Shown one piece after another: positions 2,690 through 5,814 of a stretch of DNA of 64,000 nt. The position numbers and the translations under genes are program-made. Each line of letters begins with the position of its first letter. Within the stretch, counting starts at the first letter, position 1. The stretch is taken from assembly GCA_963662405.2 (NCBI GenBank), contig CAXXKT010000001.1:384001-448000 (forward strand). Reading direction: 5' to 3'. The notes under the pieces are model-generated. The model was not told the origin of the DNA. It did not search any database and was given only the letters and a program-made list of their open reading frames with translations. Source of the DNA: Syntrophales bacterium. Lineage in GTDB: Bacteria > Desulfobacterota > Syntrophia > Syntrophales > UBA2210.

Positions 2690-3661
2690 ATGCTGAAATC
2701 CATACTGATCTCGGCTTTTATCTCAATAGCGATCTACTTCGGTATCGCCGCCGTCCTGATCCTGAGCGGCATCCCCGATCCGCCTGCGCAGGATGAAAGC
2801 AGCCTCCGATTCGAGGAACTGTTCATCGATTACGAAGGCCTGCCCGATCTGCACCGCTACGAGGCCAGAGACGGGGCGCAGTTATCGTACCGCCATTACC
2901 CTTCCGAATCGAACACGGTCCTGATCCTGTTGCACGGCGCGGGGTATCACAGTCGCTACCTGATGCCCCTGGCCCAATTCATCAGCTCCGAAGGCCTGGC
3001 GCATGTCTACACCCCCGATCTGCGCGGGCACGGACCGGCCCCCACGCGAAGGGGCGATATCGACTACATCGGGCAATACGAGGACGACATCGCCGACCTG
3101 ATTGCCGTGGTCCGGGATCGGCACCCCGATGCCGCACTGATCGTCGGTGGGCACTCCTCCGGCGGCGGGCTGACGATTCGCTTCGCGGGGAGTCGGTACG
3201 GGCGGCAGGCCGACGCCTATCTCCTCCTGACACCCTATCTCAAATACAACGCCCCCACCATGCGCCCCCAATCCGGGGGATGGGCGCAGCCCTTCACGAA
3301 ACGTATCATCGGTCTGGTGCTCCTCAATAATGTGGGAATCCGCTCGTTCAATCACCTGCCGGTCATTCGATTCAATACACCCGAAGAGGCAAGGGACGGG
3401 ACGGAGACCCTGTCGTACACCTACCGGCTCAATACGGCATATGCCCCGAAGAATTACAAAAAGGGACTCAAGGCCATTACACAACCCATCCTGGTCGTGG
3501 CCGGCACCGCCGACGAGGTGTCGTACGCCGATCAATTTGAACCCGTCATCTCACAATACACCGACGCGCAGGTGGAACTACTGGCCGGTGTCACGCACAT
3601 GGGGGTCGTGGTGGGAAGCGAAACCCGACCGGTGATAAAGAAATGGCTGGAAGAACGGTAA
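2690..3661 (+). CDS. Alpha/beta hydrolase (lysophospholipase-like)
   Basis: LHGAG, PDLRGHG, GHSSGG; AGGAGG RBS. Confidence 0.88.
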   Translation: MLKSILISAFISIAIYFGIAAVLILSGIPDPPAQDESSLRFEELFIDYEGLPDLHRYEARDGAQLSYRHYPSESNTVLILLHGAGYHSRYLMPLAQFISSEGLAHVYTPDLRGHGPAPTRRGDIDYIGQYEDDIADLIAVVRDRHPDAALIVGGHSSGGGLTIRFAGSRYGRQADAYLLLTPYLKYNAPTMRPQSGGWAQPFTKRIIGLVLLNNVGIRSFNHLPVIRFNTPEEARDGTETLSYTYRLNTAYAPKNYKKGLKAITQPILVVAGTADEVSYADQFEPVISQYTDAQVELLAGVTHMGVVVGSETRPVIKKWLEER

Positions 3662-3759
3662 AAAGAAAAAGTTCGTAACGGCTTGTAGTATCTTTAAATT
3701 GTGTACCAGACATTTTTTTGAAGCTTAATCAATGTGAAAGGAGGAATGATAAAAAGTCT

Positions 3760-3930
3760 TCATGAGCTGTGAATTGGGATACACTGTTTGAAACTTTATA
3801 GTTTTGGGCAGCAAGGCTACTGTTCGACATGTTTACTGGTCTTCGAGACCGCAAAGGAGAATGAAGAGCTGTAGCCGCAACATTCAATGATCTTCGAGAT
3901 CGAATAGGAGATTGGGACCAATTCACCTGA
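3760..3930 (+). ncRNA. Putative IS110 bridge RNA
   Basis: Outer stem GTGAATTGG (3769-3777) / CCAATTCAC (3918-3926); two similar hairpins (3838-3850, 3889-3901) flanked by segments matching the target and donor junctions. Confidence 0.75.
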
Positions 3931-3962
3931 CAGGCGCTGTCCAAGATGTGAGGAGGCGTTCT

Positions 3963-5075
3963 ATGAAGATGAGTATCGGGGTTGACCTTCACAAGACGCA
4001 GTTTACCGTTTGTTGTTTGAGTGAAGATCGGAGTGTTCAGGAGTCGGGCATCTACCCGACGACTGATCGAGGTTACCGGGCATTTATCATGAAGGTGTCC
4101 AACTGGAATGAGGGCGGTTACGAGGTCACGGCAGCGGTGGAATCAACAGGGAACACCCGACACTTTCGCAACCGGTTTTTGAAGGCGGGGATTGAGGTCA
4201 AGATAGTGAACACCTTGAAATTCAAGGTTGTAAATGAGTCAGTAAAAAAGACTGACAAGCATGATTCCCGCACATTGGCTGAGTTTCTTGAGAAAGATAT
4301 GCTTCCCGAGTCCATTCTTTGTTCGCAGGAAAGCGAGGACATTCGAAGGCTTCTCAAGTCACGTTCTGTTCTGGTGAAAGCTTTGGTATCCTTGAAAAAC
4401 CAGATACACGGTTTATTGCTTGGATATGGGATAGAGAGTCGGCGGGGACAGCTGCAGAGCAAAAAAGAAAGGCAGCGAATCCTTGACGGTCTCGCGGACC
4501 ATAGGAGTTACGGAAACGCTGCCCGAGCGGTAAAACCGCTTCTTGGTACAATAGACCAAATTGCATCCGAGGTCAAAGGACTTGAGCGCGTATTATCTGA
4601 TCTTGTTTCTGAAGACGAGGATGTTGCTCTGTTGCAAACGATTCCTGGCGTTGGAATAATAACAGCAGCGACGATTCGGGCTTATACCGATGACATCAAC
4701 CGATATGAGAGCGCCAAGCAGTATGCTGCTCATGCCGGTTTGGTACCATGGGTTCAAAACTCCAACAAGACCATTCGCCATGGTCATATTACCAAGCGAG
4801 GCCCCGTGGAACTGAGGACGGCTTTTGTGCAAATGGTAATGGGGATGCTACGGCTTCGGAATAAAACCGATGGATATTGGCTTATGTACAAATACAAAGC
4901 CATGAAAGAGAACAAGGGAACCGGGAAGAGCGTAATAGCGACGGCGCGAAAGATGAGCACTATTGTATATGCCATCTTGAAGAAGGGGGAGCCGTTTGAT
5001 CCATCGAAAATGCTGCCAGACCCGAAATATGTAGAGATGAGTAAGGTTGCGAGGTGTTATGCTTTGGCCGTTTAA
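3963..5075 (+). CDS. IS110 family transposase/recombinase
   Basis: IGVDLHK, VESTG, KTDKHDS (DEDD RuvC-like domain); LQTIPGVG, GLVP..QNS, GHITKRG; GAGGAGG RBS. Confidence 0.95.
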   Translation: MKMSIGVDLHKTQFTVCCLSEDRSVQESGIYPTTDRGYRAFIMKVSNWNEGGYEVTAAVESTGNTRHFRNRFLKAGIEVKIVNTLKFKVVNESVKKTDKHDSRTLAEFLEKDMLPESILCSQESEDIRRLLKSRSVLVKALVSLKNQIHGLLLGYGIESRRGQLQSKKERQRILDGLADHRSYGNAARAVKPLLGTIDQIASEVKGLERVLSDLVSEDEDVALLQTIPGVGIITAATIRAYTDDINRYESAKQYAAHAGLVPWVQNSNKTIRHGHITKRGPVELRTAFVQMVMGMLRLRNKTDGYWLMYKYKAMKENKGTGKSVIATARKMSTIVYAILKKGEPFDPSKMLPDPKYVEMSKVARCYALAV

Positions 5076-5139
5076 ATTTTAACCATGGGCCTGTTTGACA
5101 GGCTCTCCATGAATTGACTTTTTATAGGAGGAGGTATTG

Positions 5140-5814
5140 ATGGAACTGAAAGAAGCTATCACGAAGCGGATCAGCGTGAGGGGCTACAGACCGGATCCCG
5201 TTTCCCGGGAGGTCCTGACCGAGATCATTGAGACATCCCTTCGCGCGCCGTCCGCGATGAACGTCCAGCCCTGGGGGATCACCGTTCTTGCCGGCGGACC
5301 TCTGGACCGGTTGCGCGACACGAATATGGAGCTGCTGAAATCGGGCGCGGTTCCCGTTTCGGATTTCGGGCATGCGAAACCGTACGAAGGGGTCTACAAG
5401 GAACGCCAACGCACGCTGGGATTCCAATTATACGGCCTCCTCGGCATTGAGCGGAATGACAAGGCAAAACGAATGGAGTGGACCATGAAGGGGTTTCGGG
5501 GGTTCGACGCACCGGCCATGGTCATCCTGTCGGCCGACAAGGGCCTCGATACCCGGCTCGCCGGTTCCGATATGGGCGGACTCATTCAGACCATCTGTCT
5601 GGTGGCCCTCGAATACGGCCTGGGCACCTGCATCAACGGACAGGGCATCTTCTTCCCCGACGCCGTCAGGACGGTTGCCGGTATTCCGGAATCGCACAAC
5701 ATCTATATCTGTATCGCCATCGGCTATCCCGACTGGGACCATCCGGCGAACAGGCTGGTGAGCGACCGGGAGTCCATTGAAACCGTCACGCGCTGGGTCG
5801 GATTCGATCAATAG
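5140..5814 (+). CDS. Nitroreductase family protein
   Basis: KRISVRGY, APSAMNVQPW, IAIGYP. Confidence 0.92.
   Translation: MELKEAITKRISVRGYRPDPVSREVLTEIIETSLRAPSAMNVQPWGITVLAGGPLDRLRDTNMELLKSGAVPVSDFGHAKPYEGVYKERQRTLGFQLYGLLGIERNDKAKRMEWTMKGFRGFDAPAMVILSADKGLDTRLAGSDMGGLIQTICLVALEYGLGTCINGQGIFFPDAVRTVAGIPESHNIYICIAIGYPDWDHPANRLVSDRESIETVTRWVGFDQ

What the first reader, a model, noticed from the sequence alone, without database searches (positions are those of the whole stretch)
3760..3930. Readable bridge-RNA architecture in the IS110 left end
Seen: two parallel modules, each guide-3 nt-hairpin-2 nt-guide. Module 1 is TGTTT-act-GGTCTTCGAGACC-gc-AAAGGAG, closed by GGCTAC/GTAGCC. Module 2 is CATTC-aat-GATCTTCGAGATC-ga-ATAGGAG. 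Module 2 matches the reconstructed circle junction ATAGGAG|GAATG (one guide identical, one reverse-complementary). The AAAGGAG of module 1 matches the left target flank. Joining the ends also creates TTGACT-17 nt-TAAAAA with an extended-10 TG. Known: IS110 bridge RNAs have target and donor loops and are expressed from a junction promoter. Inference: an intact, reprogrammable bridge system.
Basis: partly seen in the sequence, partly recalled or inferred. Interest (0 to 1): 0.78.

Follow-up and report, generated by a model that had tools for sequence, protein, structure and literature searches.

The report
Shine-Dalgarno-seeking IS110 bridge RNA element
This is a recently active IS110-family jumping gene whose left end encodes a two-loop guide ("bridge") RNA; the guide matches ribosome-binding sites, and its guides sit in the opposite order to the textbook element IS621.

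Summary
The element is window 3744-5130 (1387 bp). It has nine 100%-identical copies in this genome.

Evidence from about 150 related loci that the left end encodes a bridge RNA:
- Target-loop 3' guide (3853-3859): it equals the left flank. At position -7, 78 of 98 pairs match, against a shuffle mean of 33.
- Donor-loop 3' guide (3904-3910): it equals the last 7 nt of the right end in 104 of 106 rows. Five of these changed on both sides.
- Donor-loop 5' guide (3881-3885): it covaries with the first 5 nt of the left end.
- All stems show compensatory changes.
- Both halves of the junction promoter are conserved.

- The proposed 5' target guide TGTTT is not shown to match right flanks; the signal is marginal.
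- The guide order is reversed relative to IS621. With the 10-bp subterminal inverted repeats, this is IS1111-like, although the RNA lies upstream of the transposase.
- The target is the Shine-Dalgarno sequence of a gene, and the right end rebuilds it.

No circle junction or RNA evidence was obtained.

The parts
3737..3743 (+). Left target flank AAAGGAG, the host Shine-Dalgarno sequence into which the element inserted
   Evidence: identity among the nine copies starts here. 8 of 9 left flanks are AAAGGAG and 1 is TAAGGAG.
3744..5130 (+). The insertion sequence (1387 bp), from GAATG to ATAGGAG. The exact crossover within the AGGAG shared by both junctions is not resolvable.
3747..3755 (+). TG plus the -10 box TAAAAA, the left-end half of the junction promoter
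   Evidence: TGATAAAAA sits at this place in 110 of 124 related left ends.
3749..3758 (.). Left subterminal inverted repeat ATAAAAAGTC; its partner is 5116-5125
   Evidence: 10 nt, 100% complementary, each arm 5 nt from its tip.
3769..3777 (+). 5' strand of the outer stem; pairs with 3918-3926
   Evidence: 89.7% of cells paired; 7 of 9 pairs have changes on both sides.
3784..3811 (+). 5' stem-loop. Its 3' strand (3803-3812) can alternatively pair with 3936-3945.
3815..3876 (+). Target-binding loop: base stem 3815-3825/3866-3876, variable 5' arm 3826-3837, hairpin 3838-3850, left target guide 3853-3859
3830..3834 (+). Candidate right target guide UGUUU; unproven
   Evidence: only a marginal excess of pairing with right-flank positions +3 to +7; 2-5 of 5 paired in the nine own copies.
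3853..3859 (+). Left target guide AAAGGAG. It is identical to the top strand of the left flank, so it would pair with the bottom strand.
   Evidence: covaries with the flank at positions -7 to -3; positions -2 and -1 (AG) are invariant.
3881..3885 (+). Right donor guide CAUUC, complementary to left-end bases 3744-3748
   Evidence: 28, 28, 27, 25 and 28 of 28 unique pairs paired; z 4.3-5.0 at the three variable positions.
3889..3901 (+). Donor-loop hairpin
   Evidence: 97.3% of cells paired; 38 and 27 sequences changed on both sides at two of its pairs.
3904..3910 (+). Left donor guide AUAGGAG, identical to the right-end terminus 5124-5130
   Evidence: identical in 104 of 106 rows, including 5 rows where guide and end both read ATAGAAG. 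Position -8 is identical in 1 of 106.
3918..3926 (+). 3' strand of the outer stem
3936..3945 (+). 3' strand of a long-range helix with 3803-3812. It crosses the outer stem, so it is a pseudoknot or an alternative fold.
   Evidence: 89.8% of cells paired; 9 of 10 pairs have changes on both sides.
3963..5075 (+). Recombinase gene (370 aa), preceded by GAGGAGG at 3950-3956
4488..4507 (+). Hairpin GGTCTCGCGGACC inside the gene, followed by ATAGGAG. It resembles the two loop hairpins. Its role is unknown.
5114..5119 (+). -35 box TTGACT, the right-end half of the junction promoter
   Evidence: TTGACT sits at this place in 121 of 130 related right ends.
5116..5125 (.). Right subterminal inverted repeat GACTTTTTAT
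5124..5130 (+). Right-end terminus ATAGGAG. It is the left half of the donor site and a replacement Shine-Dalgarno sequence for the downstream ORF (ORF 5137-5814; ATG at 5140).

Best explanation
Window 3744-5130 is an active IS110-family insertion sequence. Its left end is transcribed into a bridge (seek) RNA of about 160-180 nt (3769-3926, possibly to 3945).

The RNA has a 5' stem-loop and two pseudo-symmetric internal loops, each capped by a nearly identical hairpin.

Donor loop (shown by covariation):
- Its 3' arm AUAGGAG has the sequence of the last 7 nt of the right end, so it would pair with the bottom strand.
- Its 5' arm CAUUC is complementary to the first 5 nt of the left end.
- Together they read the RE-LE junction of the excised circle.

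Target loop:
- Its 3' arm AAAGGAG has the sequence of the left target flank, which is the Shine-Dalgarno sequence of a host gene (shown).
- Its variable 5' arm may add weak recognition of the right flank (not shown).

Inferred steps:
- The recombinase exchanges strands at the invariant AG. On the opposite strand this reads CT, the IS621 core.
- Insertion therefore falls between the Shine-Dalgarno sequence and the start codon, always co-directional with the gene.
- The right end (TATAGGAG) supplies a new Shine-Dalgarno sequence at the original spacing.
- In the circle, TTGACT (right end) and TGnTAAAAA (left end) are brought 17 nt apart. This would be a promoter for the RNA and the recombinase.
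- In the integrated state, the host gene's own promoter would read into the element.

Placement. Guide order (top-strand-pairing guide 5', bottom-strand-pairing guide 3') and the 10-bp subterminal repeats are IS1111-like. The upstream position of the RNA is IS110-like.
For: Element and protein:
- Nine 100%-identical copies with sharply defined ends; left flanks AAAGGAG in 8 of 9 and TAAGGAG in 1 of 9.
- Pfam PF01548 and PF02371. NCBIfam NF033542 at 228.9 bits against a cut-off of 140. D8/E60/D98/D101/S267 invariant in 89-90 of 90.

Target guide versus left flank. 98 unique pairs with 24 distinct 9-mers. Identical at -7: 78 (shuffle mean 32.9, max 46). At -6: 93 (68.0). At -5: 95 (79.6). At -4: 97 (89.4). 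At -3: 97 (91.3). In each case 0 of 2000 shuffles reach the observed value. Position -8 is not significant (27 against 23.5).

Donor guides:
- The 5' guide versus the left-end start: 28 unique pairs; 28, 28, 27, 25 and 28 paired; z 4.3-5.0 at the variable positions.
- The 3' guide equals the right-end 7-mer in 104 of 106 rows, 5 of them with ATAGAAG on both sides.

RNA structure on 82 distinct left ends. 87.9% of cells paired against 81.4% shuffled. 341 cells changed on both sides against 135.7. 0 of 500 shuffles reach these values. Slid controls give 27-45% paired.

Promoter halves. TTGACT in 121 of 130 right ends; TGATAAAAA in 110 of 124 left ends.

Shine-Dalgarno targeting:
- 79 of 104 unique right flanks carry a start codon that opens an ORF, 74 of them 5-8 nt after the right end.
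- A congener's orthologous gene has an uninterrupted AAAGGAG, then 10 nt, then ATG.

Guide order. IS621 reads stem-LTG-SL-RTG and stem-LDG-SL-RDG (Hiraizumi 2024, passages; Durrant 2024, passages). IS1111 seekRNAs have the reverse order (Siddiquee 2024, abstract and sections 6 and 12).

Subterminal repeats.
Against: - No direct evidence of the RNA, the circle or recombination. No RNA run holds the stretch. Contigs of four runs show no RE-LE joint, but contigs drop rare forms.
- No Rfam family matches.
- The 5' arm of the target loop does not clearly pair with right flanks. In 89 SD-type pairs, 264 of 445 bases pair at +3 to +7 against a shuffle mean of 244.5 (2 of 1000 shuffles reach this; 8 offsets tested). 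That register is 2 nt off the donor-loop register. In the nine own copies 2-5 of 5 pair.
- The single-sequence fold is not unusually stable (z -1.45).
- Shuffle controls ignore relatedness of the elements, although each insertion site is an independent event.
- Nine loci were dropped from the guide counts as mis-parsed or aberrant: L032, L061, L065, L110, L115, L116, L122, L142 and L143.
- The 19 Lentisphaeria-type loci (L066-L078 and L080-L084) were left out of the alignments.
Confidence: 0.85

Rival explanations
1. The left-end structure is only a 5' leader that regulates transposase translation or transcription. The matches to flank and ends would be copies of end sequence with no guide role, and the protein alone would recognise AGGAG.
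For: Two mutually exclusive helices share strand 3803-3812. The 3' strand lies just upstream of the transposase ribosome-binding site, which looks regulatory. The invariant AGGAG part of the target could be read by protein.
Against: Positions -7 to -3 of the 3' target guide track the flank across independent insertions. The 5' donor guide tracks left-end bases +2 to +4. Guide and right end change together to ATAGAAG. A leader with no guide role would not predict covariation with DNA outside the RNA.
Confidence: 0.05
2. It is a true bridge-RNA element, but a one-sided one. Only the 7-nt left guide selects the target, and the 5' arm of the target loop is structural or serves another step such as excision or a handshake.
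For: The right-flank signal is marginal, and the right flanks of the nine own copies have no consensus. The 5' arm is nonetheless the most variable RNA segment, with 47 distinct 12-mers among 89 pairs.
Against: In non-SD-targeting relatives (L149, L150, L152, L161, L166 and others), the 5' arm is complementary to a sequence 1-7 nt into the right flank. However, the offset varies, and the arm is also complementary to the left guide itself in those elements.
Confidence: 0.35
3. The copies are fossils of a past burst, and the system no longer works.
For: No circle or RNA was observed.
Against: Nine copies are 100% identical over 1394 bp, each with an intact ORF and intact guides. All guides match their current ends.
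Confidence: 0.07

Closest known systems
IS621 bridge recombinase and bridge RNA (IS110 group; Durrant et al. 2024 and Hiraizumi et al. 2024, passages read)
   Same: DEDD/RuvC plus Tnp recombinase. RNA encoded in the left end upstream of the gene. A 5' stem-loop, then the target loop, then the donor loop. Each loop reads both strands around a dinucleotide core. The promoter is split across the RE-LE junction. No target duplication.
   Different: Guide order within each loop is reversed here: the right guide is 5' and the left guide is 3'. The long guide (7 nt including the core) is the 3' one. The 5' guide does not cover the core. The core reads AG on the gene strand (CT on the other strand). 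Subterminal repeats are 10 bp rather than 2-3 bp. The target is a Shine-Dalgarno sequence, not a REP element. The catalytic-serine motif reads SN, not SG, in 86 of 90 relatives.
IS1111-type seekRNA elements (ISEc11, ISPa11, ISKpn4; Siddiquee et al. 2024, abstract and sections 6 and 12 read)
   Same: [quoted passage not shown] Subterminal inverted repeats fall in the 7-17 bp range. A junction promoter is present.
   Different: In those elements the non-coding region and RNA normally lie downstream of the transposase; here they lie upstream. The paper names ISMtsp17 as a rare IS1111 relative with an upstream region. I did not place this protein on a tree with labelled references. It is 26.6% identical to the IS4321 transposase over 77% of its length.
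IS900 of Mycobacterium avium subsp. paratuberculosis (IS110 family)
   Same: It targets translation-initiation signals. I saw only the title of Doran et al. 1997, in a reference list. The rest is recalled.
   Different: As recalled, not checked: IS900 lies in the opposite orientation to the target gene, and the targeting serves expression of an antisense ORF. No bridge-RNA analysis of it was seen in the searches.

Membership tests
IS110 family (RNA-guided DEDD transposases) | N-terminal DEDD RuvC-like domain plus C-terminal Tnp domain with a catalytic Ser | tested here: met
   PF01548 (E 8e-19) and PF02371 (E 3e-20). NF033542 at 228.9 bits against a cut-off of 140. D8/E60/D98/D101/S267 invariant in 89-90 of 90.
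IS110 family (RNA-guided DEDD transposases) | Sequence-specific insertion without target-site duplication | tested here: met
   Nine copies all sit after (A/T)AAGGAG. The right flanks are unrelated to the left flanks. Only AGGAG is shared between the two junctions.
Bridge/seek RNA systems | Structured non-coding RNA in a non-coding end, with two internal loops | tested here: met
   every helix has compensatory changes; 0 of 500 shuffles reach the observed values.
Bridge/seek RNA systems | Loop arms covary with target and donor DNA | tested here: met
   Left target guide, right donor guide and left donor guide all covary. The right target guide is inconclusive.
Bridge/seek RNA systems | Promoter reconstituted at the RE-LE junction; circular intermediate | tested here: inconclusive
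   The sequence and its conservation fit: 17-nt spacing, and 121 of 130 and 110 of 124 for the two halves. No joint was seen in contigs of 4 runs and no RNA run is listed.
IS110 group sensu IS621 | RNA in the left end, upstream of the recombinase | tested here: met
   Left end 219 nt (3744-3962); right end 55 nt (5076-5130)..
IS110 group sensu IS621 | 5' arm of each loop pairs with the bottom strand (left guide) and 3' arm with the top strand (right guide) | tested here: not met
   The order is reversed in both loops (compared).
IS1111 group | Subterminal inverted repeats of 7-17 bp | tested here: met
   10 bp, perfect: 3749-3758 / 5116-5125.
IS1111 group | Top-strand complement 5' of bottom-strand complement in the RNA | tested here: met
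   compared.
IS1111 group | RNA / long non-coding region downstream of the transposase | tested here: not met
   The RNA is upstream.
IS1111 group | Transposase clusters with IS1111-type proteins; GL-P----S(T)G motif | tested here: inconclusive
   The motif reads GL-P----SN. The protein is 26.6% identical to IS4321 over 77% of its length, E 4e-10. No tree with labelled references was made.
Rfam RNA families | Match to a curated covariance model | tested here: not met
   Only two chance-level hits below the gathering scores, both inside the coding region.

The most novel reading that the evidence does not exclude
This element represents a widespread, undescribed clade of IS110-family elements. 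Members were found in MAGs labelled Spirochaetia, Desulfobacterales, Dehalococcoidales, Dysgonamonadaceae, Lentisphaeria and others. The clade combines an upstream bridge RNA with IS1111-type guide polarity and long subterminal repeats. It homes to the near-universal Shine-Dalgarno motif in the sense orientation. By doing so it would borrow the host gene's promoter for its own RNA and recombinase, and it rebuilds the ribosome-binding site so that the downstream gene stays translatable. This would be an operon-hitchhiking strategy that needs only about 7 nt of target guide.
Probability: 0.4. Interest if true: 0.65.

Novelty: new variant of a known kind. Interest (0 to 1): 0.5.

Why it matters
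Bridge RNAs are already known, so the existence of one here is not new. Three things are useful.

1. A natural lineage mixes the defining traits of the IS110 and IS1111 groups: RNA position against guide order and subterminal repeats. This bears on how the RNA moved between element ends, and on whether guide order is tied to RNA position.

2. Target choice appears to rest on a 7-nt guide aimed at ribosome-binding sites, with the site rebuilt by the right end. That would explain how such an element could spread across phyla at low cost to the host, and how an integrated copy could be transcribed without its junction promoter.

3. The clade gives about 80 distinct, naturally reprogrammed RNAs for studying guide rules. 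For genome engineering the short target guide is a drawback.

Tried and rejected
- Rfam scan of 3600-5200 at E<=10: no relevant family.
- Public runs: no RNA holder listed.
- Contigs of runs X1-X4 laid on 3650-5250: no RE-LE joint, only flank loose ends of other copies.
- Right target guide: all offsets +1 to +8 tested. Only +3 to +7 is marginal.
- Intramolecular pairing of the target loop's 5' arm with the left guide: present in the 11 non-SD 'termite-type' loci, but not general in the 66 SD-type RNAs.
- Local 3' hairpin 3929-3941: poorly supported at 69.2% paired. The long-range helix fits better.
- Promoter scan of the integrated copy: four consensus-like sites against 1.6 expected; none was pursued. 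No terminator-like site in the right end.
- Naming the element through plasmid records: the only close hit is an unnamed 'IS110 family transposase' on a Thiospirochaeta perfilievii plasmid, 75% aa identity and 77.6% identity over the left end.
- Group assignment through IS4321 similarity: not decisive.
- Literature on Shine-Dalgarno targeting by bridge elements. Four searches: 'IS110 + Shine-Dalgarno + insertion'; 'IS900 + translation initiation signals'; 'IS110 family + ribosome binding site + target site + start codon'; 'bridge RNA + Shine-Dalgarno'. None returned a paper describing it. PMC7823733 and PMC3196728 proved irrelevant. Supplements of the bridge-RNA papers were not read and may list such targets.
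- Earlier findings of this scan: nothing to show.
- A short ORF after the host SD (ATG at 3746): rejected as functional, because relatives whose left end starts GCACG lack the ATG.

Full report
**1. What is there**

- Module 1: TGTTT (3830-3834), ACT, GGTCTTCGAGACC (3838-3850), GC, AAAGGAG (3853-3859). It is enclosed by GGCTAC (3815-3820) / GTAGCC (3871-3876).
- Module 2: CATTC (3881-3885), AAT, GATCTTCGAGATC (3889-3901), GA, ATAGGAG (3904-3910).

Downstream lies a 370-aa ORF (ATG 3963, stop 5075). It has Pfam DEDD_Tnp_IS110 and Transposase_20. It passes NCBIfam 'IS110 family RNA-guided transposase' at 228.9 bits against a cut-off of 140.

**2. Boundaries and copies**

The window's genome holds nine copies, 100% identical over window 3737-5130. 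Aligning their flanks puts the element at 3744 (GAATG...) to 5130 (...ATAGGAG).
- Left flanks end in AAAGGAG in 8 of 9 copies and TAAGGAG in one.
- Right flanks share nothing.
- Only AGGAG is common to both junctions, so there is no target duplication. The crossover lies somewhere in AGGAG.
- A perfect 10-bp subterminal inverted repeat lies 5 nt from each tip: 3749-3758 / 5116-5125.

**3. Relatives**

A protein-seeded scan gave 77 loci in species genomes, at 31-91% aa identity. The MAGs are labelled Spirochaetia, Desulfobacterales, Treponema, Alkalispirochaeta, Marispirochaeta, Leptospira, Dehalococcoidales, Dysgonamonadaceae, Lentisphaeria and others. A second scan gave 80 of 260 metagenome relatives.

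Of the 166 loci held:
- 156 had the donor-loop anchor, 142 a recognisable left-end start and 130 a right end.
- 130 loci were parsed into guides and flanks.
- The 19 Lentisphaeria-type loci (L066-L078 and L080-L084) were left out of the alignments.
- Nine mis-parsed or aberrant loci were dropped from the guide counts: L032, L061, L065, L110, L115, L116, L122, L142 and L143.

**4. Guide/DNA covariation**

Left target guide (3' arm of loop 1) against the left flank, over 98 unique pairs:

| Position | Identical | Shuffle mean |
|---|---|---|
| -7 | 78 | 32.9 (max 46) |
| -6 | 93 | 68.0 |
| -5 | 95 | 79.6 |
| -4 | 97 | 89.4 |
| -3 | 97 | 91.3 |

In each row 0 of 2000 shuffles reach the observed value. 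Positions -2 and -1 are the invariant AG. Position -8 is at background (27 against 23.5). The guide is therefore 7 nt long.

Right donor guide (5' arm of loop 2) against left-end bases +5 to +1, over 28 unique pairs: 28, 28, 27, 25 and 28 paired, with z 4.3-5.0 at the three variable positions. Examples are CAUAC/GTATG, CAUGC/GCATG, CGUGC/GCACG and CGUUC/GAACG.

Left donor guide (3' arm of loop 2) equals the last 7 nt of the right end in 104 of 106 rows. In 5 of these both read ATAGAAG. Position -8 matches in 1 of 106.

**5. The unproven arm**

The 5' arm of the target loop is the most variable part of the RNA, with 47 distinct 12-mers among 89 pairs. Its complementarity to right flanks is marginal.
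- At +3 to +7, 264 of 445 bases pair against a shuffle mean of 244.5 (sd 7.3). 2 of 1000 shuffles reach this, and eight offsets were tried.
- That register is 2 nt off the donor-loop register.
- In the nine own copies UGUUU pairs with 2-5 of 5 bases, and with 2 of 5 in the window copy.
- In 11 relatives that target CACAAAG, CACGGAG, CGCAGAG or GGGGGAG instead of an SD, this arm is complementary both to the left guide and to a second, imperfect target copy 1-7 nt into the right flank.

I leave its role open.

**6. RNA fold**

On 82 distinct left ends (alignment A1) the nested model comprises the outer stem 3769-3777/3918-3926, the 5' stem-loop, the target-loop base stem and the two hairpins.
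- 87.9% of cells are paired against 81.4% shuffled.
- 341 cells are changed on both sides against 135.7.
- 0 of 500 shuffles reach these values, and slid controls give 27-45% paired.

RNAalifold instead pairs 3803-3812 with 3936-3945. That helix has 89.8% of cells paired and compensatory changes at 9 of 10 pairs. It competes with the 5' stem-loop and crosses the outer stem, so it is a pseudoknot or a switch. The single-sequence fold alone is unremarkable (z -1.45).

**7. Target biology**

The right end ...GGTTGACTTTTTATAGGAG is conserved across the clade: TTGACT in 121 of 130, and the left-end TGATAAAAA in 110 of 124. Of 104 unique right flanks, 79 have a start codon opening an ORF, 74 of them 5-8 nt after the right end.

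The elements therefore sit between a gene's Shine-Dalgarno sequence and its start codon, co-directional with the gene. The right end replaces the Shine-Dalgarno sequence at the native spacing. A congener's orthologue of the downstream ORF has an uninterrupted AAAGGAG, then 10 nt, then ATG.

Two points are inferences. One is that the host promoter then transcribes the RNA and recombinase. The other is that the downstream gene remains translatable. No terminator-like site was found in the right end.

**8. Comparison with known systems**

IS621: the loops read stem-LTG(A50-U58)-stem loop-RTG(G77-G80) and stem-LDG-stem loop-RDG. The left guides pair with the bottom strand and the right guides with the top strand (Hiraizumi 2024 passages; Durrant 2024 passages). 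Here the order is right guide, hairpin, left guide in both loops.

IS1111-type elements: Siddiquee et al. [quoted passage not shown] They also report that IS1111 elements have subterminal repeats and a downstream non-coding region, with rare exceptions such as ISMtsp17 (abstract and sections 6 and 12). Durrant et al. give 7-17 bp subterminal repeats for IS1111 against 2-3 bp for IS110.

This element is therefore IS1111-like in guide order and repeats, and IS110-like in RNA position.

Read on the opposite strand, the junction is CATTC|CT|CCTAT. This gives the IS621-type CT core and the IS621 RNA-DNA geometry, with the gene cassette inverted relative to core polarity. That reading is an inference.

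The serine motif reads GL-P----SN, not SG, in 86 of 90 relatives.

Targeting of translation signals has a precedent in IS900. I saw only the title, in a reference list. Four library searches found no description of bridge RNAs aimed at Shine-Dalgarno sequences. Supplements were not read.

**9. What is missing**

There is no RNA, circle or activity evidence. There is no Rfam model match, and no tree against labelled references.

**Verdict**

This is a real, very probably functional bridge-RNA element. It is a new variant of a known kind, and of moderate interest.

Noticed in passing
window 4488-4507: Inside the recombinase gene, GGTCTCGCGGACC (codons G-L-A-D-H) forms a hairpin like the two guide-loop hairpins and is followed by ATAGGAG. 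Of 90 distinct relatives, 65 keep a fully paired 4-bp stem in three versions: GGTC/GACC 44, GTGC/GCAC 12, GTTC/GAAC 9. The amino acids change with the stem. Slid windows pair in 0-1 of 90.
   Followed up: partly
window 3803-3812 with 3784-3794 or 3936-3945: One strand has two covarying partners: a local 5' stem-loop and a long-range helix that crosses the outer stem, just upstream of the recombinase ribosome-binding site. This is a possible pseudoknot or switch.
   Followed up: partly
run X4, contig record 21, laid on window 3824-3853: A marine-sediment contig follows the target-loop DNA up to 3853 and then continues with TAAGGAG plus what looks like a gene start. This may be a deletion or recombination at the guide-coding DNA, which itself looks like a target.
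   Followed up: no
L142, L143, L149, L150, L152, L157, L159, L161, L162, L164, L166: A sub-clade targets CACAAAG, CACGGAG, CGCAGAG or GGGGGAG instead of an SD. Some members have the donor end changed to ATAGAAG. Their target-loop arms are mutually complementary. The right flank holds a second, imperfect target copy. L149 is a tandem pair of elements separated by 8 nt.
   Followed up: partly
L013-L028 (one Spirochaetia MAG chromosome): At least 15 copies in one genome. Several left flanks (for example L019 and L025) repeat up to 14 nt of the element's own right end. This suggests insertion next to a right-end remnant or an earlier copy.
   Followed up: no
L066-L084 (Lentisphaeria-type, 31-37% aa identity): These distant relatives also sit after A-rich GGAG flanks and carry GAAAGGAG and TATAGGAG in their upstream region. 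Shine-Dalgarno targeting may therefore extend well beyond the close clade.
   Followed up: no
window 3853-3859 vs 3904-3910: The target and donor left guides differ at a single base (AAAGGAG against ATAGGAG). The right end is therefore itself a near-target, and Shine-Dalgarno sites are near-donors.
   Followed up: no
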